A DNA stretch of 20,000 bases from an uncultured virus (IMG/VR IMGVR_UViG_3300044212_000089). Taxonomy: Duplodnaviria; Heunggongvirae; Uroviricota; Caudoviricetes. Positions 308-19,254 of this stretch are shown here, one piece after another. Below the pieces are notes generated by a model. The model had not been told where the DNA came from. It did no database searches and saw only the letters and a program-made list of their open reading frames with translations. Location: IMG/VR virus record IMGVR_UViG_3300044212_000089; one strand, given 5' to 3'. The position numbers and the translations under genes are program-made. Each line of letters opens with the position of its first letter. Position 1 is the stretch's first letter.

Positions 308-808
308 TTAGAACCAGTCGGGGAACTCCTGAGACAGCTTCCCCTCGGCCTTCTTCAGACGGGACAGGAACGTCGTGCGCTTGATGCCGACGATGTCGGC
401 GATGGCCTCGTCGGAGAGGCCTTCCTCGCGGAGCTCTCCGATACGCTTGGCCTCCGGCATGAGCTCCTGCAGACGCTCGAACAGCTGGTCCAGCTCCGCC
501 TTCTCGGAAAGCACCTCTTCAATAAGAGGAGCGCCGTCCGGAACGTAATCGGCGAGCGTTCCTTCGCCGTCAGGCAGTGGATCGTCAAGAGAGACGGTCG
601 TGTTGTTGCGGAATTCGCAGTCGAGGCAGTTGCCGTCGCACAGCCACCATTTGCTGCGCGGGCAGAAGCACTCGCCGCGATACTGCATGCGTTTCCTCAG
701 CGCCGTGCGCCAGCGGTCGTACTCGCGATACTGGTCCTCCGGGATCTCGTACCACTGCTTGGTGGTCTTGTCGTAGATGCGTTTACTCTGATTGTCATTG
801 GTTTTCAT
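308..808 (-). CDS. Sigma-70 region 4-like / sigma-factor-like HTH protein of phage/ICE type (166 aa)
   Basis: C-terminal EGLSDEAIADIVGIKRTTFLSRLKKA is a sigma region-4-type HTH, preceded by VSLDDPL. Cys cluster CFCPRSKWWLCDGNCLDC. Start moved to ATG 808 (MKTNDN), which has GGAGGT upstream. Confidence 0.8.
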   Translation of the reverse strand: MKTNDNQSKRIYDKTTKQWYEIPEDQYREYDRWRTALRKRMQYRGECFCPRSKWWLCDGNCLDCEFRNNTTVSLDDPLPDGEGTLADYVPDGAPLIEEVLSEKAELDQLFERLQELMPEAKRIGELREEGLSDEAIADIVGIKRTTFLSRLKKAEGKLSQEFPDWF

Positions 809-850
809 GCGCGATACCTCCGTTCGCTTCTCCCGAACCGGAGGCCGCAC

Positions 851-1098: not shown

Positions 1099-1290
1099 TC
1101 AGTTGTCGTTAATCATCAGCTCCAGATCGCCGAACACTTCCTCGTAATAGGAAGGGCAGAGATCGTCGAAGCAGGTCGCGTCGTAGCGCTGAAACACGCC
1201 ATCGACAGCTGCCTCTCCGTAGATGGAGCAGACCTGGTCAGCATCGTTCTCGATATTGATGCGCCACATTTCTCTATCGTCGTGAGTCAC
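1099..1290 (-). CDS. Small acidic hypothetical protein (63 aa)
   Basis: GTG start with strong RBS (GGAGGTGA). First gene of the leftward unit. Confidence 0.7.
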   Translation of the reverse strand: MTHDDREMWRINIENDADQVCSIYGEAAVDGVFQRYDATCFDDLCPSYYEEVFGDLELMINDN

Positions 1291-1361: not shown

Positions 1362-1390
1362 TTGATTTGTTTATAAAGAACTCGTATAAT
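1362..1390 (+). promoter_or_regulatory. Sigma70/SigA-type promoter for the rightward defence operon
   Basis: TTGATT (1362-1367), 17-nt spacer, TATAAT (1385-1390), in the AT-rich divergent intergenic region. Confidence 0.6.
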
Positions 1391-1440: not shown

Positions 1441-1525
1441 GACCTTATTGTCGAATGACAGTTAGGTCCTGAAAAAGGGAGGCACGCAGCAAATCAGGTC
1501 TTGCAGGTCCTGAATCAGGTCCTGA
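1441..1525 (+). repeat. Operator-like (C)AGGTCCTGA direct repeats plus an inverted GACCT/AGGTC pair
   Basis: AGGTCCTGA 1464-1472, CAGGTCTTG 1495-1503, CAGGTCCTGA 1504-1513 and 1516-1525. Imperfect inverted repeat GACCT-TATTGTCGAATGACAGTT-AGGTC at 1441-1468. Confidence 0.6.
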
Positions 1526-1529
1526 GGAG

Positions 1530-2387
1530 GTGATCAGTATTAAGAGCAACGAATTTCTCAATAAGCTGTATGGCTTTTTAGATAATCAGCGGAATCAAGG
1601 AACCTATATCATCGAGTTCTTCAATGCTGCTGGAAGCCATTATTTTGTGATGCCTCTTGCATATAAGAACAGGACAAATGAAGCTCTTGAAGGCGAGAGG
1701 CATTATGCCAAGGACAGACCGCTCATCCCGGAAATAAAGGAGTCGTTCCCGAATCCGATTAACCTGGATGGGCTTGCTGCATTCATTGACAAGAACCTGC
1801 CCGCCAACAAGCTCACAGCCTGCATGGCGGAGTTCGGAATTCCTTCTGGAGCGCAACTGGACAAGGCCAAGTTCGCTCATGCTCTTGCAGCACAGTTCAG
1901 TCTGTTCGTGACAACTCCCGGTGACGACGTTGACAACGCAGTCTGGGAGATGTATCAGACGCTTCTGGCAGGGCAACCGATATCTGCAGATGACATAAGC
2001 GGCCCTCGGTATGCTGGCGATGATGTTATGGTTGAATTCGGCGGCAGGCGTCATGAAGCGGACTGCTATGAGATCATTCACCACGAATGGAAATTACAGA
2101 ACTGTGGAACATGTGAATGGCATGACCGGAAGCTGGTTCTGGCGAATCAGACAGAAATACATCCTCGGCCGGCTCAGACCGTTATTCCGGTACCGGATAC
2201 AGGGCCGGGCGAATTTACAAAAATAGCCACAGACATAGATGTCCGTGGCTTCGAGGGAAACTTCGAATGCAAGTGGGAAATGCAGGATGCTGATGGAGAG
2301 AACTGCTTTCCGAATAAGCGGTGGGATTTCAATATAAGGATTCAGGTGACGTTCCATACGTCGGACGAAGGAGACACGCGTGGATAA
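1530..2387 (+). CDS. Hypothetical protein with C-terminal NBR1-Ig-like (FW) domain
   Basis: C-terminal WKLQNCGTCEW...VPDTGPGE...EGNFECKWEMQDADGENCF fits the NBR1 Ig-like pattern (WxxxNxGxxxW...VPxxxPGE...GxY/FxxxW). N-terminal ~155 aa helical and unassigned. Exact start uncertain. Confidence 0.7.
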   Translation: MISIKSNEFLNKLYGFLDNQRNQGTYIIEFFNAAGSHYFVMPLAYKNRTNEALEGERHYAKDRPLIPEIKESFPNPINLDGLAAFIDKNLPANKLTACMAEFGIPSGAQLDKAKFAHALAAQFSLFVTTPGDDVDNAVWEMYQTLLAGQPISADDISGPRYAGDDVMVEFGGRRHEADCYEIIHHEWKLQNCGTCEWHDRKLVLANQTEIHPRPAQTVIPVPDTGPGEFTKIATDIDVRGFEGNFECKWEMQDADGENCFPNKRWDFNIRIQVTFHTSDEGDTRG

Positions 2388-2595
2388 GAATATAGAAAAA
2401 TGGTCAACGATGAAGGAAGTGCAGGAATACCTCGGGGTAGGCCGCGAAAGCATCATGCAATGGATCAACAAGCGCAACATGCCTGCATACAAAGTCGGGC
2501 GACTTTGGAAATTCAAACTGAGCGAAGTCGATGACTGGATTCGCTCCGGCGGAGCTGCCGAAGAAAACAGCGAAAAGGAAAACAAGGAAAACTGA
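2380..2595 (+). CDS. Excisionase-family (HTH_17) DNA-binding protein
   Basis: WSTMKEVQEYLGVGRESIMQWINKRNMPAYKVGRLWKFKLSEVDDWI is a classic Xis/HTH_17 winged helix. GTG start with AAGGAG RBS, 8-nt overlap with the upstream gene. Confidence 0.9.
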   Translation: MDKNIEKWSTMKEVQEYLGVGRESIMQWINKRNMPAYKVGRLWKFKLSEVDDWIRSGGAAEENSEKENKEN

Positions 2596-2685: not shown

Positions 2686-4692
2686 ATGGACAATCAGGAG
2701 TACAACTCGATAGTCAGCTTTATATGGGGAATCGCAGACGACTGCCTGCGCGACGTCTATGTCCGCGGCAAATACCGTGACGTTATTCTGCCGATGACGG
2801 TCATCCGCCGCCTTGATGCAATGCTGGAAGGGACGAAGGAAGCCGTTCTTACCATGAAGAAGCAGTTGGACACCGCCAAGATCGATAACCAGTGGCCTGC
2901 GCTCTGCAACACTGCCGGACAGGCGTTCTGCAATGCCTCGCCATTCCTTTTAAAGGATCTGACGAGCCGCTCGAAGAAGCAGACACTTGAAGCGGACTTC
3001 AAGGCATACCTGGACGGCTTCTCTCCGAACGTTCAGGAGATCCTCGACAAATTCAAGTTCCGCGACCAGATCAAGACGATGGTAGACGCGGACATTCTTG
3101 GCGCGGTCATCGACAAGTTCACATCATCGGATATCAACCTCAGCCCGAATCCTGTTTATAAGGACGCGGAGAAAAAGATCGTGAAGCTGCCGGGACTCGA
3201 TAACCACGGCATGGGAACGATCTTCGAGGAGTTAATCCGCCGATTTAACGAAGAAAACAATGAGGAAGCCGGAGAACACTGGACACCGAGGGACGTTGTC
3301 GAGCTCATGGCTGACCTTGCTTTCTATCCCGTTGAAGACCAGATCAAAGATGCAACATACTCCTGCTATGACGGTGCCTGTGGCACAGGAGGAATGCTTA
3401 CGGTTGCTCAGGCGCGACTCCTGACACTCGCGGGCCGTCGCGGAAAGAATGTCTCTATTCACCTGTTTGGTCAGGAGGTCCAGCCGGAAACGTACGCCAT
3501 CTGCAAAGCTGACATGCTGCTCAAGGGCGATGGCGAGGAAGCCGAACACATCTTCTATGGCTCAACGCTATCGCTGGATGGGAATCCGTCGCGGCAGTTC
3601 GACTTCATGCTTTCCAATCCACCGTATGGGAAAAGCTGGAAAACAGATGCAGACAAGATGGGTGGCAAGAGTGAAATCCTTGACACTCGTTTCAATGCAT
3701 ACCTTCCCGGCGGTGAGGAGCTAAAGATGATCCCGCGCACAAGCGACGGACAGCTTCTCTTCCTGCTTAACAATGTATCCAAGATGAAAACCGACACAGA
3801 ACTCGGGAGCCGCATCATCGAAGTACATAACGGCTCATCCCTGTTCACGGGCGATGCAGGAAGCGGTGAAAGCAATGCTCGCCGGTATATGATCGAGCGT
3901 GATCTGGTAGAGGCCATCATCGCATTGCCTGACAACATGTTCTACAACACAGGCATTGGCACATACATTTGGGTGCTTTCCAATAAGAAGGAAGAACGCC
4001 GCAAAGGCAAGATTCAGCTCATCGACGCGACAAATATGAAGTCCTCGCTGCGCAAGAACATGGGCAATAAGAACTGCGAATTCACGCCGGAAATCCGTAA
4101 GGAAATTGTCCGCATCTTCCTCGACATGGAGGAAAGCGACGTAAGCATGATATTCGATAACAGTGAGTTCGGCTACTGGAATGTAACTGTCGAGCGCCCG
4201 CTGCGCCTGCGCGTATTCCCGGAACGAGAAATCCCGGAAGATACGTTCAAGAAGCAGTCAGAGCTTGATGCAGTTCGTGAGGCCATCGCCAAGATTCCTG
4301 CGGGAACGCCGCTTGACGATTGGGACGCTTTTGCCAAGGCGACAAAGCTCAAAAAGACGCAGCTCAAGAAGATCCGTCCGTTTATCACGGAAACTGATCC
4401 ACATGCAAAAGAGGTTGAAGGCGAATCCGATCCGAACCTCCGCGACTCGGAAAACATTCCGTTCAACTACGATGGTGGGATCGATGCATTCATCGAAAAG
4501 GAAATCAAGCCATATGCACCGGACGCCTACGTGGATGAAAGCAAGACAAAGATCGGCTACGAGATCAGCTTCACGAAGTACTTCTACAAGCCGGTGCAAC
4601 TCCGTGATATGAAAGACATCCTTGCCTCGCTTGAGGAGCTCGAAAAGGAGTCTGATGGGGTCATGGATGAGATCGTGGAGGGACTGGAGTAA
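2686..4692 (+). CDS. hsdM: Type I R-M methyltransferase subunit M
   Basis: N-terminal FIWGIADDCLRDVY..GKYRDVILP, GEHWTPRDVV (motif X), YDGACGTGG (motif I), NPPYG (motif IV), FYNTGIGTY. RBS AAGGAG. Confidence 0.95.
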   Translation: MDNQEYNSIVSFIWGIADDCLRDVYVRGKYRDVILPMTVIRRLDAMLEGTKEAVLTMKKQLDTAKIDNQWPALCNTAGQAFCNASPFLLKDLTSRSKKQTLEADFKAYLDGFSPNVQEILDKFKFRDQIKTMVDADILGAVIDKFTSSDINLSPNPVYKDAEKKIVKLPGLDNHGMGTIFEELIRRFNEENNEEAGEHWTPRDVVELMADLAFYPVEDQIKDATYSCYDGACGTGGMLTVAQARLLTLAGRRGKNVSIHLFGQEVQPETYAICKADMLLKGDGEEAEHIFYGSTLSLDGNPSRQFDFMLSNPPYGKSWKTDADKMGGKSEILDTRFNAYLPGGEELKMIPRTSDGQLLFLLNNVSKMKTDTELGSRIIEVHNGSSLFTGDAGSGESNARRYMIERDLVEAIIALPDNMFYNTGIGTYIWVLSNKKEERRKGKIQLIDATNMKSSLRKNMGNKNCEFTPEIRKEIVRIFLDMEESDVSMIFDNSEFGYWNVTVERPLRLRVFPEREIPEDTFKKQSELDAVREAIAKIPAGTPLDDWDAFAKATKLKKTQLKKIRPFITETDPHAKEVEGESDPNLRDSENIPFNYDGGIDAFIEKEIKPYAPDAYVDESKTKIGYEISFTKYFYKPVQLRDMKDILASLEELEKESDGVMDEIVEGLE

Positions 4693-6074
4693 TGGTTGAA
4701 TACGAATCTTATAAGAGTTCGTTCTATGATTGGCTGGGGAAGATTCCTTCTCATTGGGAAGAAAAGTTTTTAGAGCAAACTGCCTCAGAAAAATGTGACA
4801 AGAATATTGGCAATACAGTTACTCAAGTTTTGTCTTTAAGTTATGGAGAAATCAAGAAAAAAGGCGATTTAAACAAAGGACTGATTGCACGAGATTTGTC
4901 GACATATCAAATAATAGCCCCAGGCAATATTGTCATGCGCCTTACAGATTTGCAGAATGATCATAAAAGCCTGCGTACTGGTCTGGTAAAGGACGACGGA
5001 ATTATTACGGCGGCGTATTTGTGTCTGGCTCCGAGAATCAGTTCGGAATATCTCCATTATTTGCTCCACGCTTATGATGTAAAGAAAGTTTTCTACGGTA
5101 TGGGTGGCGGCGTTCGGCAATCTATAGGTTTTAAGGATATACGGCACATGTATATTCCTGTTCCTCCCCGCGCCGAGCAGGATCAGATTGTGCGCTTCCT
5201 CGATTGGAAAGTCTCTGAGATCAACAAGCTGATCGGAATCCGCCGGAAGGAGATACAGGAACTGCGGGCCTTGAAATCAGCTGTCATCAACTCCGCAATT
5301 ACAAGAGGCATTGATGCAAATGTGGCCATGAAAAGGACAGGCGTTTATTATCTGCCTGAAGTTCCCGCTTCATGGAAAGTAACAAAGCTAAAGAGAATAT
5401 GCAAAGTTGGCGCATCGATTAATGATCTGATAAGGGAGCATTCAGATCAGGACGAGGTGGTTTTCTTGCCTATGGAAAATATTTCAGAAGATGGCGAGAT
5501 CGATTGCTCAATAAAGCAGCCTATTGCCAAAGTAAAAACTGGTTTCTCATCTTTTGCGAAAAATGATGTTGTAGTGGCAAAGATCACACCATGCTTTGAG
5601 AATGGCAAGGGTGCTTGTCTTGATAAACTTGAATCCGATATTGGGTACGGTACGACAGAACTGTTTAACTTAAGAGCTGGGAATGACGTCCTTCCAGAGT
5701 ATCTGTATTTCATTACAATGACTAAGCTGTTCCGCATTCTCGGAGAAGGTCAAATGACTGGGTCAGCGGGTCAAAAAAGGGTGCCTGCGGATTTTATCAG
5801 GGATTTCACTATAGGCCTGCCGCCCATAGATGAACAGCAGGAAATTGTCGATTACATTCGCTCCGAGAAGGGACGGATTAACAGACTTATAGCAACTAAG
5901 CATGAACAGCTAAGGGCTCTGACGGAATTTAAGTCTTCTGTTGTATCAGATGCTGTCACCGGAAAAATCGATGTCCGAAATGTCACTGTTCCTGAGTATG
6001 AACACGTAGATGACATCGTTGACGATGATTCGGAGAATAACGAAGAAACAGAGACCGACGGAGAGGAGGCTTGA
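4692..6074 (+). CDS. hsdS: Type I R-M specificity subunit S
   Basis: Two TRDs, each followed by a conserved helix (PVPPRAEQDQIVRFLD; LPPIDEQQEIVDYI...SDAVTGKIDVR). WLGKIPSHW at the N-terminus. TAATG coupling with hsdM. Confidence 0.95.
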   Translation: MVEYESYKSSFYDWLGKIPSHWEEKFLEQTASEKCDKNIGNTVTQVLSLSYGEIKKKGDLNKGLIARDLSTYQIIAPGNIVMRLTDLQNDHKSLRTGLVKDDGIITAAYLCLAPRISSEYLHYLLHAYDVKKVFYGMGGGVRQSIGFKDIRHMYIPVPPRAEQDQIVRFLDWKVSEINKLIGIRRKEIQELRALKSAVINSAITRGIDANVAMKRTGVYYLPEVPASWKVTKLKRICKVGASINDLIREHSDQDEVVFLPMENISEDGEIDCSIKQPIAKVKTGFSSFAKNDVVVAKITPCFENGKGACLDKLESDIGYGTTELFNLRAGNDVLPEYLYFITMTKLFRILGEGQMTGSAGQKRVPADFIRDFTIGLPPIDEQQEIVDYIRSEKGRINRLIATKHEQLRALTEFKSSVVSDAVTGKIDVRNVTVPEYEHVDDIVDDDSENNEETETDGEEA

Positions 6075-6076
6075 TC

Positions 6077-9000
6077 ATGGCTTTTACGGATAAAACCGAG
6101 AGGGGATTTGAGACGATCATCGTGAACTGGCTCGTGGAGCAGAATGGCTACGAGCAGGGAACGAATGACGACTACAGTAAGGAATACGCCGTAGACGAAA
6201 CCCGCCTCTTCCGGTTCCTGAATGATACGCAGCCGAGGGAAATGGCAAAGCTTGGTGTAAATAACAGCGATCAGAAGAAGCGGCAGTTCCTAAACCGCCT
6301 TTCCGGAGAGATTGCCAAGCGCGGCATTATTGATGTGTTGCGAAACGGTGTGAAAGCGTATCCGGCTGACCTCATCATGTTCTACTTCACGCCGACTGAG
6401 AACAACGAGAAGTCGAAGCAGATGTTTGAAAAGAATATCTTCAGTGTGACACGGCAGCTTCGCTATTCCATCGACGCTTCAAAGCTCGCACTCGACCTTT
6501 GCCTGTTCATCAACGGTCTTCCGGTCGTCACGATTGAGCTCAAGAATCATTTCACTGGTCAGTCGACAGCAGATGCCGTTGAGCAGTATAAGGAAGATCG
6601 CGATCCGCGGGACACGATGTTCTCGTTCAAACGGTGCATGGTGCATTTCGCAGTCGATGACCAGACCGTCATGTTCTGCACGAAGCTTGCTGGTAAAGAC
6701 AGCTGGTTCCTGCCATTCAACAAGGGCTATAACGATGGCGCGGGCAATCCGCCGAATCCGGACGGCATCATGACAGACTATCTGTGGAAGGACATTCTGA
6801 CGAAGTGGAAGCTCTCCCGCATTATCGAGAATTACGCTCAGGTCGTCGTTGACGAAGATCCGGACACGAAGAAGAAAACCGTGAAACAGATCTGGCCACG
6901 CTACCATCAGCTGGACTGCGTGGAGAAGCTGCTCACAGATGTGAAACAAAACGGTGTCGGTAAGCGCTATCTCATCCAGCACAGTGCAGGCTCCGGAAAG
7001 TCGAATTCTATCGCATGGCTTGCTCATCAGCTGATTGGATTGGAACAAGACGGCCATCCCATGATCGATTCCGTTATCGTCGTCACCGACCGCAGGATTC
7101 TGGACAAGCAGATCCGCGATACCATCAAGCAGTTCATGCAGGTGAAAAACACGGTCGTTTGGGCACAGCATTCCGGAGACCTGAAAAAGGCAATCCAGGA
7201 TGGCAAGCGGATCATTATAACCACGGTTGAGAAGTTCCCGTACATCTCGCAGGAAATCGGTCAGGAACATATCAATAATCATTTTGCCATTATCATCGAT
7301 GAGGCACACTCAGGCCAGAGCGGGCGCAATTCCGCGAATATGAATCTGGCGCTTTCCGGCATGGCTTCAGACAACGAAATGGACAATGAAGACAAGATCA
7401 ATGCGATTGTCGAGGGCCGGAAGCTCGTAAAGACCGCGAGCTATTTTGCGTTCACCGCGACCCCAAAGAACAAGACCGAGGAGGTTTTCGGAACGCCATA
7501 TGAAGAGGATGGCGAAATCAAGCACAGGCCTTTCCATGTTTACACCATGAAGCAGGCCATTCAGGAAGGCTTCATCCTTGACGTCTTGAAGAACTATACG
7601 GCGATCGACAGCTGGTACAAGATTGCCAAGAAGGTCGAGGACGATCCGATGTTCGACAAGAAGCGCGCCCAGAAAAAACTGCGTTCCTTTGTCGAGGGGA
7701 ATCCGGATGTCATCGCCAAGAAGGCTGCCATGATGGTGGATCACTTCCATGAGCAGATCATCGCTAAGAAGAAGCTGAACGGAAAGTCCCGCGCAATGGT
7801 GGTGACCGCGAGCATCCCACGCTGCATCGAGACCTACTATGCCATCAACAAGTGCCTTGCAGACAGACATAGTCCGTACAAGGCGATTATCGCTTTCTCC
7901 GGCGAGTGCAAATACAACGGACAGGAACCTGCCCTGACGTCGGCAGGACTGAACGGGTTCCCGGACGCCAAGATCCCGAAGGAGTTCAAGAAAGATCCGT
8001 ATCGTCTTCTGGTAGTTGCAGACATGTTCCAGACCGGATTTGATGAGCCACTTCTGCAGACCATGTACGTGGATAAGCCGCTTTATGACATTGCGGCAGT
8101 GCAGACGCTTTCCCGTCTGAACCGCGCGGCTCCCGGGAAGGACGAAGTCTATGTGCTGGACTTTGCAAACAAGACATCGACGATTCAGGACGCCTTCTCG
8201 AAGTTCTACAGGACAACGATACTGTCTGGAGAGACTGATCCGAACAAGCTTTACGACCTGATCACGCTCATGGAGAGCTATCAGGTATATGACGCTGACG
8301 ATGTAGAGCACGTAGTTGATTTGTTCCTTGGCGGAGCTGAGAGAGACAGGCTTGATCCGTTGCTTGATCCGTGCGTGGCTACCTACAACGAACTCGAAAC
8401 GGACGATCAGATCAAGTTCAAGAGCGCAGCAAAGTCATTTGTCCGTACATACGGTTTCCTTGGTTCCATTCTTCCCTATGGGAATGTGGACTGGGAAAAG
8501 TTGTCGATCTTCCTGAATCTGCTAATACCGAAACTTCCGTCACCTCGTGAGGATGATTTGTCAGAGGGCATTTTGTCTACGATTGATCTGGACAGTTATC
8601 GGAATGAAGCACAGGAGGCCGTGGCCATAAAACTGGAGGACGAGGAGGCCGAGATTGCTCCGGTCCCTGCCGGAAAGGTCGGCCATAACGTTGAGCCGGA
8701 ACTTGATCCGCTTTCCAAGATCATCATGGATTTCAACGATATGTTCGGAAACATCCAGTGGAATGACGCTGATAACGTACAGCGCCAGATCCTCCAGATT
8801 CCGGCGATGGTTTCTCGTGACGAGAAATACCAGAATGCCATGAAGAATTCTGATGAGCAGGAAGCCCGAACAGAAAGCGAGCGCGCCCTGCAGAAGGTCA
8901 TCTTCTCCATCATGGCGGACAACATGGAGCTCTTTAAGCAGTTTCAGGACAATCCGTCGTTCAAGAAGTGGCTTACGAATATGGTATTCAACATGACGTA

Positions 9001-9172
9001 CAACAAGGAGGGGAAACCGTATGAAGCACCAGACGATTTGGATTCTCCGAAAGTCGCCAGCGACAATTTCACAAGCTATCGATATCCAACAGAAGCGCCA
9101 AGAAGCGGAATGATGGTAGCCGATGGCAAAGTAACGTTCGGTGAAAAGAAGGACAGCGATTCTAAAAAGTAG
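6077..9172 (+). CDS. hsdR: Type I R-M restriction subunit R
   Basis: Nuclease motif DLCLFINGLPVVTIELKN, Walker A HSAGSGKS, IIIDEAH, FTATP, FQTGFDEP, QTLSRLNR. ATG 6077 follows GAGGAGG. Confidence 0.95.
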   Translation: MAFTDKTERGFETIIVNWLVEQNGYEQGTNDDYSKEYAVDETRLFRFLNDTQPREMAKLGVNNSDQKKRQFLNRLSGEIAKRGIIDVLRNGVKAYPADLIMFYFTPTENNEKSKQMFEKNIFSVTRQLRYSIDASKLALDLCLFINGLPVVTIELKNHFTGQSTADAVEQYKEDRDPRDTMFSFKRCMVHFAVDDQTVMFCTKLAGKDSWFLPFNKGYNDGAGNPPNPDGIMTDYLWKDILTKWKLSRIIENYAQVVVDEDPDTKKKTVKQIWPRYHQLDCVEKLLTDVKQNGVGKRYLIQHSAGSGKSNSIAWLAHQLIGLEQDGHPMIDSVIVVTDRRILDKQIRDTIKQFMQVKNTVVWAQHSGDLKKAIQDGKRIIITTVEKFPYISQEIGQEHINNHFAIIIDEAHSGQSGRNSANMNLALSGMASDNEMDNEDKINAIVEGRKLVKTASYFAFTATPKNKTEEVFGTPYEEDGEIKHRPFHVYTMKQAIQEGFILDVLKNYTAIDSWYKIAKKVEDDPMFDKKRAQKKLRSFVEGNPDVIAKKAAMMVDHFHEQIIAKKKLNGKSRAMVVTASIPRCIETYYAINKCLADRHSPYKAIIAFSGECKYNGQEPALTSAGLNGFPDAKIPKEFKKDPYRLLVVADMFQTGFDEPLLQTMYVDKPLYDIAAVQTLSRLNRAAPGKDEVYVLDFANKTSTIQDAFSKFYRTTILSGETDPNKLYDLITLMESYQVYDADDVEHVVDLFLGGAERDRLDPLLDPCVATYNELETDDQIKFKSAAKSFVRTYGFLGSILPYGNVDWEKLSIFLNLLIPKLPSPREDDLSEGILSTIDLDSYRNEAQEAVAIKLEDEEAEIAPVPAGKVGHNVEPELDPLSKIIMDFNDMFGNIQWNDADNVQRQILQIPAMVSRDEKYQNAMKNSDEQEARTESERALQKVIFSIMADNMELFKQFQDNPSFKKWLTNMVFNMTYNKEGKPYEAPDDLDSPKVASDNFTSYRYPTEAPRSGMMVADGKVTFGEKKDSDSKK

Positions 9173-9201: not shown

Positions 9202-10131
9202 GTGGAGTTATCCAAAACTGTAAAGGACAAGACATTCGATGATTACTTTACAGAGGTGGAGCATTCCGAGACGATCAGCGGAATGGTACGCCCTGGTTCT
9301 CTGCGCCTTTTTTGCCTCAACGTCAGAAACGGAAACATCAAATCATCCGATCTTGAGAAATTTACCATGCTCAACATCGGGCAGTATGTGTTCTCTCGGG
9401 CAAAGCAGGAGAACTATCGGAATACAGGCAATTTCGACCTTGTGACACAGCAAGCCCTGAGAGCCATGAGAAAAAGCGCCAAGGCTCGAGACATTGATGC
9501 AGGAGAAACGCTCGGCGAGATCATGGTCTATGCTGTCATGGAAGAAAAGCTTAATGCTCATAAGCTCCTCAGCAAAATCGAACTCAGCGCAGATGCTGCG
9601 CAGTATGCGAGCGAGGCCGACGGCATTCATTTCCTGTGCAGGGACGGCAAAACGATCCTCTCCAATCAGATGGTATTCGGTGCGTCGAGCGTCACTGGAG
9701 ACATCAAGGACGCCATTGACATCGCTTTTGAGAAGATATCTCGTATTGCAAATCACGAGGATGAAGAGCTGCTTCTCGTAGAGAAAACAGCACTTGATCG
9801 CTTCTATGAAGAAGACGACCTGAAAGTCCTGACCAGCTACGTTATCCCGGAGGAGCACAAAAACGCTGCCTACGGTACATCCTTCGGAGTGTTCCTCGGA
9901 TATTCTCTTGGCCTGATCCCGGACGGCTATGACGATGACCAGTTCCGGGACCGCATGCATAAGAAAATGATTCGCGACATCAACGCGCACGAAGAATACA
10001 TAGCTCAAAAGATACGCGATGCAAAACTGCAGAATCACTCGTTCTATTTCTTCACGTTGCCTCTTAATCAGGCCAGGGAGGAAAGTGACTTGATCATGCA
10101 GCATGTTCTGGAAGGAGATGTCGACCTATGA
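9202..10131 (+). CDS. hamA: DUF1837 / Hachiman HamA-like protein (atypical active site)
   Basis: GETLGEIMVYAVME..LNAHKLLSKIEL...ADGIH...FGASS..GDIKDAIDIAF and the C-terminal FGVFLGY / HSFYFFTLP match DUF1837. ATGA overlap with the downstream Ski2-like helicase. Confidence 0.8.
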   Translation: MELSKTVKDKTFDDYFTEVEHSETISGMVRPGSLRLFCLNVRNGNIKSSDLEKFTMLNIGQYVFSRAKQENYRNTGNFDLVTQQALRAMRKSAKARDIDAGETLGEIMVYAVMEEKLNAHKLLSKIELSADAAQYASEADGIHFLCRDGKTILSNQMVFGASSVTGDIKDAIDIAFEKISRIANHEDEELLLVEKTALDRFYEEDDLKVLTSYVIPEEHKNAAYGTSFGVFLGYSLGLIPDGYDDDQFRDRMHKKMIRDINAHEEYIAQKIRDAKLQNHSFYFFTLPLNQAREESDLIMQHVLEGDVDL

Positions 10132-12861
10132 CCGTTGAAAAGAGAACACTTGGGTCGGTCATCTTCGCCGGCATCGACAGCAATCCATACCTTGGAACAC
10201 TGTATGCTCGGCTTCTGAAAGGCTATGGCTTGAGTCTCTTCAACTTGAATCAACGAAGCTCGACGGAGTTGTTCAACGCCAAGGAGAAAACCGACATTTT
10301 ACGGTTTGCCGACATTCTCTCCAAGTCGAATGATCCAGAGAAGGCAGACGCGCACAAGATATGGGCTCAGGAAATAGCCATACTGATGCATGAGATGTAT
10401 CCGCAGGATTCGCTCGTCAACCTTTACGCCGGAGACGTTTTCTCAAGCGTCGGTAACCACAAGGGACTCGAGCTTGTAAACAAGGACTATTCTGAGCCGC
10501 ATGCACTGGAAGAAATTTTCGCACAGTTCAGAGGCGATTACCTCACTATCCCCGCGGAACCTAGCCAGCGGTTCTTCGGAGAACAGAAGAACGCCTATGA
10601 CCATCTGACGGACGACTGCTTTAGCTACTCCGCGCCCACTTCGATGGGAAAATCCTTCATTATGAGGATGTTCATCAAGGACGAGATCATGCACGGGGCC
10701 CAGAAGAACTATGCGCTCATCGTCCCTACCAAGGCGCTGATAAACGAAGTCCGGGCAAAAGTCATAGACGATCTTGGCGGAGAAAAGAATACAGAGAAGG
10801 TCAACTACCTGAAGCTCCATAACTACAGCGTGGTGACAGCAGCAAGCGACATAGCTCTAGAGGACGATAACCGGAACTTCATCCTTGTCATGACGCCGGA
10901 GAGACTTCTTTACCTTCTGATAGCGAAGCCTCGCTTTGACCTGGATTATCTGTTCATCGACGAGGCCCACAAACTTTCAGGCAAGAACAGTCGAGCGCCT
11001 TTCTACTACAAAGTAGTCGACAAGCTCGTGCATCGCCAGAAGAAACCGCACTTCATCTTCGCATCGCCGAACATACCGAATCCGCAGGTCTATCTGAGAT
11101 TGATGCTCAATGCGGAGGAAGGCGATGAAGACGCTCTTGCAATCACATACTCGCCGGTTGTTCAGATCAAATTTCTTGTTGATCTGAAGAAAGGACGAAT
11201 CGAGGTTTATAACGACCACGCACTTGAAGATCAGTGCCGAATACTTCTCGCCAATGTGCGCGGCAGCGGTATTGAAGTGAATGACTTCCTGCTGGCTATC
11301 GAAACACAGAACAGGAAACTTTCCAAGGAAAAGCGTAAGCAGAGCATCGTTTACTACAACGGACGAGACAAGGCCATAAGGGCCGCCCACTCCTTCTATG
11401 AGCGGATAAAACCGAATGGCCCGAGAAATGATCCGCTTCTTGAGGCCTTGTCAAAGGACATTCAGGAAGAAGTCCATCAATGGTACTACCTCGCAGAAAT
11501 GGTACGTTATGGCATTGCTTACCACATCGGTTATCTTCCGGCATCAATAAGGGCACGGATCGAGGAGCTTTTTAAATCCGGGAACATCACGGTAATGTTC
11601 TGTACCAGTACGCTGTTGGAGGGCGTCAATCTCCCGGCGGACAATCTGTTCATCATGGAGAACAAGATATTCCTCAGCGAGATGAATACCATTGATTTCC
11701 GTAATCTCATAGGCCGAGTGGGCAGGATCAGCTTCAACCTCTTTGGGAATGTCTACTTTGTAGCGGAACGCAACAGCAAGATAACGACAGATGACTATGT
11801 ACGTATGCTTGGGCAGGAAATTCCAGAGCAGTCGCTTTCTATTGCTACTGATCCGAATGTGCTCAAGAAGGTCGAGAAACAGTATGTCGCCGATATTCTC
11901 AAAAGCGGGAAGTCGGAAATACCACGCCGTGTGAACGCTGATGGCAAAGCTATGCAGAGCGAGGAATCCTATGAGATGATGCGCAGATTCGCGACTATTC
12001 TTCAGGGAGACATTGTTCACGAGCGGGATACGCTGGTGCGTCGTGAATTCAAAGACTTCTTGACGCCAGCCGATGAGGAGTTCATCCGGGATACCTTCAA
12101 AGACGCCGAAGTCAAGCCTGATGACGACATCAATACGTCGGTAGATCAGACAACAAGCCTTATTGCAGCTATCCGAAGGGAGCGAAACCCGCTGCGTTAT
12201 CCAGATCTTGTTGATGGGAAGTTCGTATATGACGATGTGCTTGCTTTTCTCGACGAACTTGCAGAAGTGTTCAACTGGGAGGAGTACGAGGCCGGTACGC
12301 TCGGAAAACCATCACTGCGCAGATGGTACGCCGTGATCCTCTGCCAGTGGATGGACGGCGGCGGGTTGAAGTTCATCATGGACAGGGCTCTTGAATACCA
12401 TCAGAACCACCCATACCCATTCTGGATCAACAAGCATGGGTCTCCGATAACGTACAATTACCTTTCCGACGAGCCATCACAATGCCGTATTCGGAGACAC
12501 GCTTGAGGTTATTGAGAACATCATCCTTTACAGCATTTCGAACTATTTCCTTCGATTCTCCAACGAGTACAGGAAAATCAGAGGAGACGAGGCACTCAAC
12601 CGGAACGATTGGTATGAATACGTGGAATTCGGTACGACGAATCCGCTGACGATCCTGCTGCAGCGCAGCGGCTTTTCCAGAGAATCCGCTCGCTACATAA
12701 AAGAGCACCACGAGTATGTCATAAGGGACGGTAGCACAGGCCAGCTGAAACTTAGCCCTGCTCTTGCTCGGTGTGGTAATACGGATGTACGTAATGAAGT
12801 CATATACATACGGCAGAACTCACCGGAGATTTTTGAAGCCGATAATAATGATGAGGGATAA
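10128..12861 (+). pseudogene. hamB: Hachiman HamB-like DEAD/DEAH (Ski2-like) helicase with a +1 frameshift near 12474
   Basis: SAPTSMGKS, IVPTKALINE, TPER, IDEAH, YHIGYLP, STLLEGVNLP, GRVGR. Frame 1 stops at 12506, but the +1 frame from 12475 reads HHNAVFGDTLEVIENIILYSISNYFLRFSNEY...DWYEYVEFGTTNP to TAA 12861. Removing one base gives 910 aa. Confidence 0.8.
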
Positions 12862-12866
12862 AGACT

Positions 12867-15221
12867 ATGCAGAAAATTGACAAAACAGACACGCTCAAAA
12901 CAATCCTGAGTGGTCGCAAGTACACCGTCGATTATTTCCAGCGGGAATACCGGTGGGGGCAGAAGCAGATCGAGCAGATGCTCGCCGACTTCCAGAGCAC
13001 ATTTGAGGAATTTTATGATCCGGATGATCATGATACGCCGGAAGAAGTCATGAACTATGGCTTTTACTATATGGGATGCATTATCTGTACTGGCGGTTCC
13101 GTAAAGAAAATCATCGATGGCCAGCAGCGTCTGACCTCGCTAACACTTCTCATCATCTATCTGAACAACCTGCAAAAAGAAACTGTCAAGGATGAGAATC
13201 TCCTTGTCCCGCTGGATGACATGATCTATTCAAAGGCTTTCAGTAAGAAGAGCTTCAATATCGATGTGGCTGACCGTGGAACTTGCATGCAGGCTCTATT
13301 GCAAAAAGATGAGACTTATGTGCCAGTGAATGAGAGCTCACAGAATATGCTTGACCGGTATCAGGACATAGAGGACATCTTCCCTGACGAGCTGAAGGAG
13401 GAAGCGCTTCCTTACTTTATTAACTGGCTGATAGAGAAGGTCCTCCTTCTGGAGATCGACACACCGTCTGACGACGAAGCACACACGATTTTCCTGACAA
13501 TGAATGACCGAGGCCTGAGTCTGAACAGCGCCGAGATGATGAAGGCTTACATCATCCAGCAGGTTGAAGAAGCTGACCGCATTGAGGTAAATCGGAAGTG
13601 GCAGGACAACATCAACCGTATCAAGAACGCTTCTTCTTACGATACGAGCGGCATGGTGAATACGCAGGACGTTGAATTCATCTCTATCTGGCTTCGCGCA
13701 AAATATGCCAATTCCCTGCGAGATACCAAGCGCGGCGCTAAAGATGAGGATTACGAACTTCTCGGCGACAAGTTCCATACCTGGGTACGCAACAACGCCC
13801 GGACGGCGATGGGCCTTGTAAAGCCGAAGGACTACAAGGAATTTGTTCTCACTGAAATGACACGTGTCACTGATATCTATCTTCGGATGAAAGGCTATGG
13901 CAGCAAGCTGACGCCCGGATATGAAGAGGTCTTCTACAATGCAAACCGCGACCTGACCTACCAGACCATGCTTGCCATCGCTGCCATTAAAAATGACGAC
14001 ACGGACGACATCGTACAGAAGAAAATACAGATGACCGCAAAGTTCGTGGACGACTTTGCCACCATCCGAATCCTGAATTTCAAGAAGGTTAACTGGAACA
14101 CGAATAAGTATTTGCTGTTTCATGCGATGCAGGATATCCGCAATGAGGACTGTAAGACGATCGGCATGGTCTATGTCCGTACACTCCGCCGTATGGACGT
14201 GACCGTCGAGGGAATCACCAGGTTCAGTCTGAACCGGTTCTCCGGACGTTACATGCTTCACATCCTCGCGCGCTTCACTTCCTATGTGAATGTGCTGATG
14301 GGCAATCCGTCGCATTTCGAGGAGTACGTTGACCGCAAGCGTCAGGGAAACACTTACGATATTGAGCATATCCTTCCGGACAAGTACGAGGACTACGAGG
14401 ACAGCTTCACCGACTACGAGGATTTCGAATCCACCAGGAATCAGATCGGAAACCTGATCCTGCTCACCCGAGACAAGAACAGAAGCTATCAGGCAATGAA
14501 ATACTCCGAGAAGGTCCAGAAGTACATGGGAGACAACATCCTTGCTCAGGCGTTGAACGACACAGCTTACACGAACAATCCGAAATTCCTCACGGTCGTT
14601 AACGAGTACGGCTTTCATGCGATTCCTGACTTCAGTAAGCAAAGCATCGCAGACCGGGCTGAGATCTATCTGAGAATGGCAAGTGACATCTGGAATCCGG
14701 ATGCCATTAAGGAAATCGTTGGTGGATGGGCCGATGACGATGAGAAGGACTTCTTCAAGAACGAGAAGGGCCGTGAATTTACAGTCGGCTATGCAGAAAG
14801 AAGCTGGCCAGACGCGCTGAAATACGGATTCCTGTCCGCGAACCTTGGCGGCAGCGGGAAATCTATTTATAACGTTCAGGTCGGAGACACGGTTTATTGC
14901 CATATCGCTGGATATGGCTTTGTAGGTATTGGCGAATGCACATCAACCGCTGTGCCGATGAAGAACTTCAAGGTGATGGTCGACGGCACTTCAACTCCTG
15001 TTGCAGACGCGCCGTGGGAATCCGAGGAATCCAAGGAGAAACTCGATCCCAACAAGGAAGTATTTATCGGAGTTGCATGGAAGAAATATGTGACGGATAT
15101 TAATGGTGGCTACTGGGAGAAGGGAATGACGACAGTCCCGCTTGTAGCCTACATGCTTAATGATAAGACGACGCATCAGAAGGTCAGAGATCATTTCGGA
15201 TACACCGACAGTGCCGATTAA
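12867..15221 (+). CDS. GmrSD-family (DUF262 + DUF1524/HNH) modification-dependent restriction protein with an extra C-terminal domain
   Basis: DUF262 motifs FQREYRW, IIDGQQRLT, FLTMNDRGLSL. DUF1524 motifs DIEHILP...NQIGNLILL...N. Additional ~150-aa C-terminal domain. Confidence 0.88.
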   Translation: MQKIDKTDTLKTILSGRKYTVDYFQREYRWGQKQIEQMLADFQSTFEEFYDPDDHDTPEEVMNYGFYYMGCIICTGGSVKKIIDGQQRLTSLTLLIIYLNNLQKETVKDENLLVPLDDMIYSKAFSKKSFNIDVADRGTCMQALLQKDETYVPVNESSQNMLDRYQDIEDIFPDELKEEALPYFINWLIEKVLLLEIDTPSDDEAHTIFLTMNDRGLSLNSAEMMKAYIIQQVEEADRIEVNRKWQDNINRIKNASSYDTSGMVNTQDVEFISIWLRAKYANSLRDTKRGAKDEDYELLGDKFHTWVRNNARTAMGLVKPKDYKEFVLTEMTRVTDIYLRMKGYGSKLTPGYEEVFYNANRDLTYQTMLAIAAIKNDDTDDIVQKKIQMTAKFVDDFATIRILNFKKVNWNTNKYLLFHAMQDIRNEDCKTIGMVYVRTLRRMDVTVEGITRFSLNRFSGRYMLHILARFTSYVNVLMGNPSHFEEYVDRKRQGNTYDIEHILPDKYEDYEDSFTDYEDFESTRNQIGNLILLTRDKNRSYQAMKYSEKVQKYMGDNILAQALNDTAYTNNPKFLTVVNEYGFHAIPDFSKQSIADRAEIYLRMASDIWNPDAIKEIVGGWADDDEKDFFKNEKGREFTVGYAERSWPDALKYGFLSANLGGSGKSIYNVQVGDTVYCHIAGYGFVGIGECTSTAVPMKNFKVMVDGTSTPVADAPWESEESKEKLDPNKEVFIGVAWKKYVTDINGGYWEKGMTTVPLVAYMLNDKTTHQKVRDHFGYTDSAD

Positions 15222-15259: not shown

Positions 15260-16345
15260 ATGGGGGTGTCGCTTTTGACCACAGAAGCCACGGCAACATA
15301 TACATACAGGGCCACAGACGCGATCCCGCTCTATGCCCTGAAAAGCAGAAAAGCCCAGAAACAGCATGGTTTCCGGGCTAACAGCACGTACGGGCATTGT
15401 ATCAAAGATGAGGTCTTGATAGACCCTTGTTGCGGATCCGGCGCATTTCTAGTAAGAGCTATGACTGATGCAATGGATGATTGCGACACAGATTTTGAAC
15501 GCCGCCATGTCAAAGAACATCAAATTTATGGCATCGAATATGAAGAGGGCGCTTTCGGGCTTTCATCTACCAACATGCTTATTCATGGAGATGGAAACAG
15601 TAATGTCGTTAAAGATTCCATGTTTAACAGAGGAGACTGGATTCGTAATAAAAATATAGACATCGTGCTTATGAATCCTCCTTATAATGCCACGAAGAAT
15701 CAATGTGACCCAACTTATGTGAGGAAATGGAACTCCAAAAAGAAAGCTTCCGATCCCTCAAAAGGTTTCCACTATGTAGAGTGGGTAGCTCGACAGATCT
15801 CTACGAATGCAAAAGGAGGAGACGTTCCTACACATTGCCGTATGGCGGTGCTTCTTCCAATGCAATGCGCGATTGGTAATTCTACCGCAGTAAAAGATTT
15901 CAAAAAAAAGATGCTGAGCCATTATACCCTTGACGCCGTGTTTTCATTGCCAACAGAAGTATTTTATCCTGGTGCGTCAGCCGTTGCCTGCTGTATGATC
16001 TTTGACCTATCCCAAAAACATGAGCGAGCCGATCGAGACACTTTCTTCGGGTATTTTAAAAATGATGCTTTCATAAAACGAAAGGGAGTTGGACGTGTCG
16101 AGACGACGGATGAAAGCGGGAAAAGCAACTGGGAAGGAATTGAGCGAGAGTGGCTGTGGCTATATCGAAACAGATGTTCGAAACCAGGTTTGTCAATTAC
16201 CCATAAAGTGGGATGGGACGATGAATGGCTCGCCGAAGCATACATGCAAACCGATTACAGCACTCTTTCCATTTCTGATTTTCAACAAACAGTGAATGAC
16301 TATGTAGCATACCTTGTGCAAGAAGGTAAAATTTATGAAGATTAA
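15260..16345 (+). pseudogene. N-terminally truncated N6-adenine DNA methyltransferase (Type IIB/IIG, BcgI-alpha-like or HsdM-like)
   Basis: Motif I DPCCGSGAFL at residue 55, IYGIE, TNMLIHGDG, motif IV LMNPPY, SLPTEVFYPGA. The first ~50 aa show no MTase features, there is no motif X (GQxFTP) and ATG 15260 has no clear RBS. Confidence 0.75.
15398..15423. other. Putative att (recombination) junction
   Basis: Imperfect inverted repeat TATCAAAGA-TGAGG-TCTTGATA (15400-15421), exactly where recognisable MTase sequence (DPCCGSG, from 15422) begins. A second inverted repeat, AGCCCAGAAAC/GTTTCCGGGCT, lies at 15352-15379. Confidence 0.45.
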
Positions 16346-16835
16346 TATAGATGGATGGCTGGAATACACATTTGATTATCTTTTCCGCATCAAAAAGGGC
16401 AAGCGCCTTATCAAGGAGGATATGACTCCAGGGCCGTATAACTATTTAGGCGCGATAAGCTCAAATAACGGGGTGAGAGACCATATTCTGGTAGAGACCA
16501 AATCGCTTTTCCCTGAAAACTGTATAACGGTTAATTACAATGGAAGCGTCGGAGAAGCCTTCTACCAGTCTGAGCCTTTCTGGCCATCTGACGACGTCAA
16601 TATATTATACGCAAGAGATTGGTGGTCATTGGATCCCACACTTGCAATGTTCATAATCACCGTGATAAAGGCAAACAAATATAAATTCGATTATGGTCGA
16701 AAGTGGACAGTAGAAAAAATGAAGGATTCAACCCTTTTACTGCCAAGTAAAAATGGAGAGCCGGATTGGGATGCAATGAGAGAAATAATTCAAGCGCTAC
16801 ATAATCAAAGATTCCTAGAACAATCAGTCTCTTAA
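16335..16835 (+). CDS. Single-TRD restriction-modification specificity (S) subunit (166 aa)
   Basis: WLEYTFDYLFRIKKGKRL...SSNNGV...NGSVGEAFYQ...FDYGRKW...LLLPSKNGEPDWDAM resembles a BcgI-beta/HsdS TRD plus conserved helix. ATG 16335 overlaps the MTase end. Confidence 0.8.
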   Translation: MKINIDGWLEYTFDYLFRIKKGKRLIKEDMTPGPYNYLGAISSNNGVRDHILVETKSLFPENCITVNYNGSVGEAFYQSEPFWPSDDVNILYARDWWSLDPTLAMFIITVIKANKYKFDYGRKWTVEKMKDSTLLLPSKNGEPDWDAMREIIQALHNQRFLEQSVS

Positions 16836-16897: not shown

Positions 16898-17185
16898 ATG
16901 GCTTTGCATGTACAGTTAAATAGTTATCCAGAATGTTTCAAAACTTCATCTGTAGATTCATAAAAGAGTCTCAACTATGTATTCGGTAAAAATGGAAGCG
17001 GGAAAAGCGCTCTGGCAAAAGAGCTTATTGAACAAAATGGGAATGAATATAAAGCTTATTTATACGATGGATCAGATGGAGTCATCAAAGATAAAGAGGG
17101 AAAGGATAAAGCAGGGCTGAATTGCATCCTTCTCGGCAAAAAGAACGTCAAAATTGATGGGCTCATCGAAGAGCAACAGCAATGT
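16898..17185 (+). pseudogene. AAA_13 / RloC-like P-loop ATPase remnant (internal stop, 3' truncated)
   Basis: Not in the ORF track. ATG 16898 reads MALHVQLNSYPECFKTSSVDS*KSLNYVFGKNGSGKSALAKELIEQ...LNCILLGKKNVKIDGLIEEQQQ. TAA at 16961-16963, Walker A GKNGSGKS at 16985-17008. Plausible coding character ends at the GC shift near 17185. Confidence 0.7.
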
Positions 17186-17330
17186 AGAGCCGCGAAAAAA
17201 CGCCGAAAAACGCATACGGGTACTAGCCGGCGCATACGGCGCACATGTCATTTTCAGAGCAATAAAGTATCGATTCCGCTCTTCCTCGATGCACGGGCGG
17301 CATGCGTTCGCCCGACGCATATGCCCGTAT

Positions 17331-18704: not shown

Positions 18705-18772
18705 TGCGAGACGCATGAGACGCGCGCCGTCTCGCGCGGCCCGGAGGTCGCACGAATGACCGTGCTCGAATC

Positions 18773-18799
18773 GGCTGCGCCTTGCGCAGCCTCTTTTTT
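18773..18799 (+). terminator. Intrinsic terminator after the SNF2 gene
   Basis: GGCTGCGC-CTT-GCGCAGCC perfect 8-bp stem followed by TCTTTTTT. Confidence 0.6.
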
Positions 18800-18817
18800 C
18801 GGAAAGGAAGAATAGAC

Positions 18818-19189: not shown

Positions 19190-19254
19190 CGAAAGCGGGA
19201 CGCATTCCTCGGGCATAAGGCATCGTCATCAGCTACGAAAAAGGGAAACGAACA

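What the first reader, a model, noticed from the sequence alone, without database searches (positions are those of the whole stretch)
1530..2595. NBR1-Ig-like domain protein plus Xis-like HTH heading a defence operon: candidate sensor/regulator module
Seen: the first two genes of the operon overlap by 8 nt. One has an unassigned helical N-terminus fused to an NBR1-type Ig fold, with no evident signal peptide or TM segment. The other is a 71-aa HTH_17. Known: the NBR1 FW domain is a protein-binding cargo-recognition module in eukaryotic autophagy receptors; I know of no established function for bacterial copies. Inference: a cytoplasmic protein-sensing module that controls the R-M/Hachiman/GmrSD operon or is itself a defence factor, analogous in position to WYL/BrxR or CapH-CapP regulators.
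Basis: partly seen in the sequence, partly recalled or inferred. Interest (0 to 1): 0.7.

Follow-up and report, generated by a model that had tools for sequence, protein, structure and literature searches.

The report
Prophage regulator pair heading defence operon
Two small genes at the front of a gut-phage defence operon probably form a self-regulating switch: the first carries an undescribed domain that seems to recognise short repeated DNA sites beside its own gene, and the same domain turns up fused to other anti-phage proteins, but no binding has been tested in the laboratory.

Summary
ORF1 is a helical N-terminal domain (NTD; no Pfam or solved-fold match) joined to a genuine NBR1/ILRUN FW domain; ORF2 is an HTH_17; they overlap by 8 nt. 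The likely start is ATT at 1539, not GTG 1530. The pair heads a defence operon of Heliusvirales-type prophages: HTH_17 follows in 44 of 45 loci, the reverse holds in 72 of 77, and R-M or Hachiman comes next in 44 of 44. New: the leader holds direct repeats (1464-1524; spacing 32, 9, 12). Such triplets precede 39 of 51 homologues (controls 1 of 37, 0 of 32), their sequence varies with the NTD (rho 0.52) and not with HTH_17 (0.04), and repeats plus the NTD's first ~80 codons recombine as one block. The NTD is homologous to N-terminal domains of Lamassu LmuA and of long HamA; short HamA travels with this pair (38 of 42), long HamA does not (0 of 40). Best reading: an autoregulatory, repeat-binding transcription factor with an FW sensor domain (0.55). 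DNA binding, the ligand and HTH_17's role are inferred; linkage alone could produce the covariation.

The parts
308..850 (-). Divergent sigma-70 region-4-like gene, start of the prophage early/replication module
   Evidence: TIGR02937 E 2.7e-6, below cut-off; relatives in PV0364xx phage records; in L001 (98% nt) it is followed by DUF2800, Enc34 SSB and PolA
1362..1390 (+). Candidate sigma-70-type promoter of the defence operon
   Evidence: 10 of 12 consensus, 4 hits vs 3.0 by chance; similar -10 offset in most homologues
1464..1524 (+). Four direct repeats AGGTC(C/T)TG at 1464, 1496, 1505, 1517 (spacing 32, 9, 12): candidate operator
   Evidence: 3 exact copies, all here, vs 0.39 expected in 20 kb; same architecture in 39 of 51 homologues
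1526..1541 (+). Shine-Dalgarno GGAGG and probable non-canonical ATT start at 1539
   Evidence: aligned position is NTG or ATH in 51 of 51 homologues, mostly 7-10 nt after an SD-like sequence
1539..1973 (+). ORF1 N-terminal helical domain (residues 4-148), candidate repeat-binding domain shared with LmuA and long HamA N-termini
   Evidence: pLDDT 94; best PDB Z 3.7; hhalign 96.5% to LmuA N-termini, 88% to long-HamA extension
1998..2363 (+). ORF1 FW (NBR1/ILRUN Ig-like) domain, residues 157-278
2380..2595 (+). HTH_17 (Xis/BldC/MAD1-like) protein
   Evidence: Pfam E 1.8e-13; MAD1 62.8 bits, below cut-off 80; mean column identity 75% across 16 loci
2686..9172 (+). Type I R-M cassette hsdM, hsdS, hsdR (swappable cargo)
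   Evidence: replaced by another HsdM family, type IIG, type III or nothing in relatives
9202..10131 (+). Short-form HamA (Hachiman nuclease), the constant partner of the pair
10128..12861 (+). HamB helicase, frameshifted near 12470 in this window
   Evidence: 792-aa ORF, remainder in another frame; single-base gap against 4 of 4 aligned relative loci, which are two contigs
12867..15221 (+). GmrSD-family gene

Best explanation
ORF1 is an autoregulatory transcription factor of a prophage defence operon. Shown: a two-domain cytoplasmic protein that heads the operon, always followed by HTH_17 and then R-M and/or Hachiman; an array of direct repeats about one helical turn apart beside its own start; repeat sequence that varies with its N-terminal domain. 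Inferred: the N-terminal domain binds the repeats head to tail on DNA between promoter and ribosome-binding site and holds the operon down (a weak ATT start keeps the protein scarce); the FW domain binds a protein ligand or mediates oligomerisation and so tunes or relieves repression, for instance on entry into a new host or on infection; HTH_17 is a second, architectural regulator that does not set the specificity. The same domain does the job in cis when fused to LmuA or to long HamA, which is why long HamA and this pair exclude each other.
For: Exact 5-mer triplets spaced 8-12 nt within 230 nt upstream: 39 of 51 dereplicated NTD-FW loci and 14 of 19 other NTD genes (shuffle means 0.07, 0.03) against 1 of 37 sigma-like genes and 0 of 32 internal short hamA genes. 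Repeat-core distance correlates with NTD distance (rho 0.52; 0.49 after removing FW), FW 0.22, HTH_17 0.04 (33 loci). One identical 27-residue HTH_17 segment goes with GGGAC, GGTAC and AACAC cores. In the window's clade LEGERHY goes with GGTC and all other motifs with GGTA in 24 of 24 tree rows. Window vs L005: promoter and early leader nearly identical, repeats through codon ~83 only 70-78%, then 97%. Repeats stand before LmuA-NTD genes in records with no HTH_17 (L203; L147, 91% complete) and, by eye, are absent where HTH_17 remains but ORF1 is gone (L048, L070, L072, L083). First 75 residues net basic, median +4. The slot holds WYL, XRE or antitoxin-like genes in sister elements. FW is fused to an XRE HTH in P0206.
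Against: No DNA-binding fold was recognised: best structural Z 3.7, NTD vs XRE profile 0.6-1.2% probability, long-HamA extension vs XRE 5.9%. The correlation falls with distance from the leader (0.47, 0.47, 0.38, 0.22, 0.04), as plain linkage with recombination would give; kin are not independent; two cores were read one base out of register; HTH_17 has little variance. The GGTC/LEGERHY cases share a recombined block, so they are not independent changes. 0 of 26 long hamA starts have repeats; they lie before the HTH_26 head in only 8 of 22. Repeats lie 70-130 nt downstream of the -10 box in most loci but about 100 nt upstream of the promoter in others, unusual for a simple repressor. Nothing shows what FW binds.
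Confidence: 0.55

Rival explanations
1. ORF1 is the prophage's master (immunity) repressor, standing in for CI: it binds the repeats in the divergent control region and also keeps the sigma-like early operon off; operator and reader diversify to give immunity types. Fusions of the domain to LmuA or HamA would then tie lysogeny control to DNA-damage or DNA-end sensing. Compatible with the best explanation, but wider.
For: First gene of the operon divergent from the early module in 40 of 48 loci with room. 0 of 5 near-complete prophages with the pair (3 rated 100% complete) encode HTH_3, HTH_26 or S24 peptidase, while 2 elements without an NTD-type head do carry HTH_3 (W02, G417). Operator plus reader recombine as a block. 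Elements that lost ORF1 but kept HTH_17 also lack the sigma-like gene (L070, L072, L083). PV036460 has a gene annotated as anti-repressor in the early operon.
Against: The repeats lie 170-230 nt from the nearest divergent ORF and inside the defence leader. Sister elements keep the sigma-like gene without any NTD gene at the slot (L048, L169, L183). The control is small: of 5 records one is 44% complete and one is a 214-kb record with host DNA. Tight coupling to HamA is not needed by this reading.
Confidence: 0.13
2. ORF1 is a working subunit or effector of the defence system: the N-terminal domain of long HamA supplied in trans (a third Hachiman gene), or a toxic domain activated by oligomerisation with FW as phage-protein sensor.
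For: Short HamA has the pair upstream in 38 of 42 loci (the other 4 had under 1.5 kb of upstream DNA), long HamA in 0 of 40. P0125 fuses NTD, FW and HamA. All 5 genomes of 401 with NTD-FW have this HamA clade within 8 kb downstream; 6 of 401 have it at all. 0 of 5 incomplete records with lost or broken ORF1 have HamA. The NTD sits at the effector position of LmuA and, in L204, carries a C-terminal motif matching the N-terminus of the next gene, the effector side in amyloid-signalling pairs (10.1101/2024.11.07.622273, passages). FW is also fused to a SMEK domain, a Lamassu effector type (P0190; PMC12663957, passages).
Against: No invariant catalytic-type residue in the NTD. NTD occurs in addition to an HNH-like motif in some LmuA (L157, L246, L249; motif recognised by eye). 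It does not explain the repeats or their covariation. The HamA alignment was built from loci holding the pair, and two of the five genomes match by construction.
Confidence: 0.15
3. HTH_17 reads the repeats as a BldC-like head-to-tail multimer and ORF1 is its partner or sensor.
For: BldC, an HTH_17 protein, binds 9-bp direct repeats (PMC11963761, passages); the 9+12 spacing is typical of HTH_17-bearing operons and 10+10 to 11+11 of HTH_26-bearing ones. FW and HTH_17 occur together in 51 of 51 dereplicated loci.
Against: HTH_17 does not covary with the core (rho 0.04); repeats are present without HTH_17 and absent with HTH_17 alone. Deleting the related mad1 had little effect on MADS defence (10.1101/2023.03.30.534895, passages).
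Confidence: 0.1
4. The NTD binds the repeats as RNA next to its own ribosome-binding site and represses translation or ends transcription.
For: In most loci the repeats are in the transcribed leader and abut the SD; the start codon is weak.
Against: In a group of about a dozen loci the same array, same strand and spacing, lies upstream of the -35 box. The leader folds no better than shuffles (z -0.85). Spacing near one DNA turn.
Confidence: 0.05

Closest known systems
Bacterial XRE-FW regulators (noted in PMC9233695, passages read; P0206 here)
   Same: N-terminal putative DNA-binding domain plus C-terminal FW domain, cytoplasmic
   Different: The N-terminal domain here is about 145 aa and does not match XRE significantly; tied to HTH_17, Hachiman and a direct-repeat array
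Eukaryotic NBR1 and ILRUN FW domains (PF16158; PDB 4OLE, 6VHI)
   Same: Same Ig-like fold; three tryptophans align
   Different: 14% identity; the Ams1-binding pocket residues were not checked; no ligand known
WYL/BrxR and CapH-CapP regulators, R-M C-proteins (mechanisms recalled, not from a call)
   Different: No WYL or peptidase domain; direct rather than inverted repeats; co-transcribed with the operon; same domain also fused into effector subunits
MAD1 of MADS, VrlI, BldC, RdfS (HTH_17 family)
   Same: Small wHTH near the head of a methyltransferase-containing defence operon
   Different: Below the MAD1 cut-off; no mad3-8 genes; second gene, not first
Hachiman HamAB (PMC12278908, passages read)
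   Same: HamA and HamB match PADLOC HamA1/HamB1
   Different: Described as a two-gene locus; here one clade comes with either an N-terminal extension or this upstream pair, with R-M inserted between
Lamassu LmuA family PDLC03857 (ABC-3C CTD6/CTD11)
   Same: Shares the N-terminal domain and the leader repeats
   Different: ORF1 has FW instead of the CTD and no LmuB/LmuC

Membership tests
FW / NBR1-Ig domain (PF16158) | Pfam score over gathering cut-off | tested here: inconclusive
   26.8 vs 28 bits for the window protein; 78 of 84 relatives hit at E<=0.05, best 3e-11
FW / NBR1-Ig domain (PF16158) | NBR1/ILRUN beta-sandwich fold | tested here: met
   top two structural hits 6VHI Z 12.1 and 4OLE Z 10.7; only PDB sequence hits of the profile
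FW / NBR1-Ig domain (PF16158) | Four conserved tryptophans | tested here: inconclusive
   W187, W197, W249 align with NBR1 tryptophans; the alignment ends before a fourth
FW / NBR1-Ig domain (PF16158) | Binds a protein cargo | not testable with these tools
   no ligand data
HTH_17 | Pfam PF12728 over cut-off | tested here: met
   50.9 vs 27 bits
MADS | MAD1 equivalog score and mad6-8 genes | tested here: not met
   62.8 vs 80 bits; downstream genes score best as type I R-M and Hachiman
XRE/Cro-CI repressors | HTH_3-type domain in ORF1 | tested here: inconclusive
   no Pfam hit; hhalign to an 8-sequence XRE alignment 0.6-1.2%, 5.9% for the long-HamA extension; Stl only at Z 2.7
WYL/BrxR regulators | wHTH plus WYL domain | tested here: not met
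   no WYL hit in either gene
CapH-CapP | XRE-type CapH plus metallopeptidase CapP | tested here: not met
   no capH or peptidase hit for either protein; C-terminal fold is FW
Lamassu LmuA | ABC-3C C-terminal domain with lmuB and lmuC neighbours | tested here: not met
   only the N-terminal domain is shared; no CTD, LmuB or LmuC in the window
Hachiman | HamA DUF1837 plus HamB helicase in the operon | tested here: met
   hamB frameshifted here
Ca. Heliusvirales prophage | Same gene order as records classed in the order | tested here: met
   PV036460 has the pair, type III R-M and HamAB divergent from the sigma-like gene; 3 of 3 PV records opened are labelled Ca. Heliusvirales
Ca. Heliusvirales prophage | Nine marker genes and TerL phylogeny | not tested
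   markers lie outside the window and its genome is not held

The most novel reading that the evidence does not exclude
The N-terminal domain is an undescribed DNA-binding fold that reads diversifying direct-repeat operators and is the missing lysogeny repressor of a large gut-phage order; it is used alone with an FW sensor, or fused to or amyloid-coupled with Lamassu and Hachiman subunits, so that defence sensors also control defence expression and prophage induction.
Probability: 0.15. Interest if true: 0.9.

Novelty: new variant of a known kind. Interest (0 to 1): 0.64.

Why it matters
How toxic defence operons (R-M, Hachiman, Lamassu) on gut prophages are held in check on arrival in a new host is largely unknown. 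This gives a candidate regulator, its candidate operator and natural specificity variants that differ by one base and a few residues, so the claim can be tested with one EMSA and one reporter swap. It would also assign a first function to a cytoplasmic bacterial FW domain in immunity, explain the unannotated N-termini of one HamA clade and one LmuA family, and perhaps identify the repressor of prophages that lack a CI.

Tried and rejected
NTD fold searches found nothing clear: PDB VIA-wide best Z 3.7, Foldseek PDB 0 hits at E<=0.001, BFVD best E 0.47, TM 0.54 to an uncharacterised 279-aa siphovirus protein, Atlas no usable hit, PDB sequences none; this does not show a new fold. XRE ancestry was suggested by eye but is not significant. 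Direct NTD vs gene-A-type domain comparison was negative (0.1-1.2%); the link is only through the long-HamA extension (92%). Two searches for longer fused forms gave only 294-335-aa family members or nothing (weak evidence), so P0125 is the single NTD-FW-HamA fusion seen and its context is unknown. Plasmids hold only FW-only matches, 3 records. Leader RNA structure is not above chance. An excisionase role for HTH_17 was considered and neither supported nor excluded; no att site was examined. Binding between ORF1 and HTH_17, oligomerisation and expression data remain open. Literature searches returned no description of this pair, the domain or the repeats; the library lacks most subscription papers, the original ABC-3C classification paper was not found or read, and no supplements were seen, so the domain may be named there. 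Earlier scan findings by sequence and by words gave nothing on this family.

Full report
Observation. Both ORFs, the 8-nt overlap and the downstream type I R-M, HamA, HamB and GmrSD genes are as described. The C-terminal domain of ORF1 is an FW domain: sub-threshold in Pfam for this protein (26.8 vs 28 bits), but hit in 78 of 84 relatives, and ILRUN and NBR1 are the top structural (Z 12.1, 10.7) and only sequence matches in the PDB. The N-terminal domain (NTD) folds confidently (pLDDT 94) with no clear solved match. The probable start is ATT at 1539: the GTG at 1530 is part of the Shine-Dalgarno sequence, and the aligned codon is NTG or ATH in 51 of 51 dereplicated homologues. hamB is frameshifted near 12470 in this window.

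Family and context. The two-domain protein is a family of about 265-300 aa (86 hits; 280 clusters at E<=0.001, some FW-only), found mostly in Bacillota with copies in Bifidobacterium, Synergistales and Alistipes records. HTH_17 follows directly in 44 of 45 loci found with ORF1 queries; the 45th ends just after the match. Starting from the HTH, 72 of 77 viral loci have ORF1 directly upstream (2 of them broken); 3 of 80 had no upstream DNA and were dropped. In a dereplicated set, the first assigned gene after the HTH was type I HsdM in 32, HamA in 8, type IIG in 2 and type III in 2 of 44 loci with room, and a divergent sigma-like or DUF2800 gene was present in 40 of 48. PV036460, labelled Ca. 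Heliusvirales, has the same arrangement. The two passages of the Heliusvirales paper that mention defence or restriction do not cover this cassette (PMC11283538). The slot is itself a hotspot: sister elements put Lamassu, a WYL gene, two XRE genes, an antitoxin-like gene or another three-gene head there, so defence adjacency alone is partly positional.

The constant partner is Hachiman. In 401 genomes (a sample of 400 plus the nearest genome), 5 hold ORF1 and 6 hold this HamA clade; all 5 have both on one contig within 8 kb (two of the five helped build the HamA alignment). Among 82 HamA loci, not dereplicated, short HamA has the pair upstream in 38 of 42 (the 4 others had under 1.5 kb upstream; two of them have it 7-8 kb away), and HamA with an N-terminal extension in 0 of 40. 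One of the 40 is a TIR fusion whose genome does have ORF1 7 kb upstream, outside the locus. The usual extension is homologous to the NTD (hhalign 88%, P 3e-6), as is the N-terminus of LmuA family PDLC03857 (96.5%, P 9e-10, 130 columns; controls at or under 1.2%). One protein fuses NTD, FW and HamA (P0125). FW in turn is fused to XRE, SMEK, DUF3102 and long-HamA-type N-termini. Both domains are therefore modules of this defence milieu.

The repeats. The leader carries AGGTC(C/T)TG at 1464, 1496, 1505 and 1517, ending at the SD. Exact 5-mer triplets spaced 8-12 nt occur upstream of 39 of 51 NTD-FW genes and 14 of 19 other NTD genes (4 broken NTD-FW loci removed from 23), against shuffle means under 0.1, 1 of 37 sigma-like genes and 0 of 32 internal hamA genes. 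The core differs between loci (GGTAC, GGGAC, GGTTC, GACAC, GCCTAC and others) but is uniform within a locus. Long hamA starts have none (0 of 26; 8 loci without the start motif were skipped); the HTH_26 gene that precedes 26 of 40 of them has triplets upstream in 8 of 22.

Which protein reads them. For the NTD: core distance tracks NTD distance (rho 0.52) more than FW (0.22) or HTH_17 (0.04) over 33 loci; identical HTH_17 segments go with different cores; LEGERHY pairs with GGTC and every other motif with GGTA in 24 of 24 rows; window and L005 differ in one block running from the first repeat to about codon 83 while sharing promoter, FW and HTH; repeats exist in records with no HTH_17 and, by eye, vanish where HTH_17 stands alone. 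Against: the correlation decays with distance from the leader, as linkage predicts; the GGTC cases share a recombined block; HTH_26 is present in Lamassu and long-HamA operons, though L251's contig lists neither small HTH; no DNA-binding fold is recognised; and an HTH_17 protein, BldC, is known to bind 9-bp direct repeats (PMC11963761, passages).

Mechanism. I give 0.55 to an autoregulatory transcription factor whose NTD binds the array on DNA and whose FW domain modulates it, with HTH_17 as a co-regulator. Position of the array upstream of the promoter in about a dozen loci argues for DNA over RNA. Rivals: a Hachiman subunit or effector supplied in trans (0.15), a CI substitute (0.13; 0 of 5 near-complete prophages with the pair have HTH_3, HTH_26 or S24, with a weak control), HTH_17 as reader (0.10), RNA binding (0.05). 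Gene order, domains, repeats and covariation are shown; binding, direction of control, the FW ligand and any ORF1-HTH_17 contact are inferred.

Comparison with what is known. It works like WYL/BrxR, CapH or C-protein regulators (recalled) but belongs to none by domain content. Bacterial FW domains on XRE regulators are already noted (PMC9233695, passages). The HTH resembles MAD1 below its cut-off; mad1 deletion had little effect on MADS (10.1101/2023.03.30.534895, passages; PMC13662399, two passages). Hachiman is described as two genes, and the passages read mention no such accessory (PMC12278908). Lamassu effector lists read do not include this domain (PMC12663957, passages). Ten literature searches found no description; subscription papers and supplements were not seen. 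Verdict: new variant of a known kind, interest 0.64.

Noticed in passing
L204:1620-3055; L047:14086-15681; L049:10391-11976; also L138, L149, L150, L205, L208: Adjacent head genes share short Q/N/G-rich motifs, C-terminal in the first and N-terminal in the second, that co-vary by locus (cognate pair top-scoring or within the same motif group in an 8 x 8 comparison). This resembles amyloid-signalling pairs. In L204-L210 the second gene is an LmuA with only this motif plus CTD6, which may explain the 'effector-less' Lamassu clade O of PMC12663957.
   Followed up: partly
window 12470-12861: hamB is frameshifted near its 3' end relative to close relatives; real inactivation or assembly error not resolved.
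   Followed up: partly
window 15260-16835: A type IIG methyltransferase that looks 5'-truncated (361 aa) plus a specificity subunit follow GmrSD; similarity to close relatives ends near 15430.
   Followed up: no
window 17000-20000: GC rises from about 0.40 to 0.66 and an SNF2-family helicase begins, suggesting the end of the element or a junction with host or another phage DNA.
   Followed up: no
window 1099-1290: A 63-aa minus-strand ORF with a good SD lies between the sigma-like gene and the defence promoter; no family hit.
   Followed up: no
L343:904-2409: TIR_2 domain fused to HamA in an operon headed by the pair.
   Followed up: partly
L070:3980-4207, L072, L083: Elements that keep the promoter and HTH_17 but lack ORF1, the repeats and the sigma-like gene; an inverted repeat lies before the HTH instead.
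   Followed up: partly
P0223; L251:1021-1857: The NTD is also fused to unassigned C-terminal domains (P0223 looks acetyltransferase-like by eye, no Pfam hit; L251 no hit, four leader repeats).
   Followed up: no
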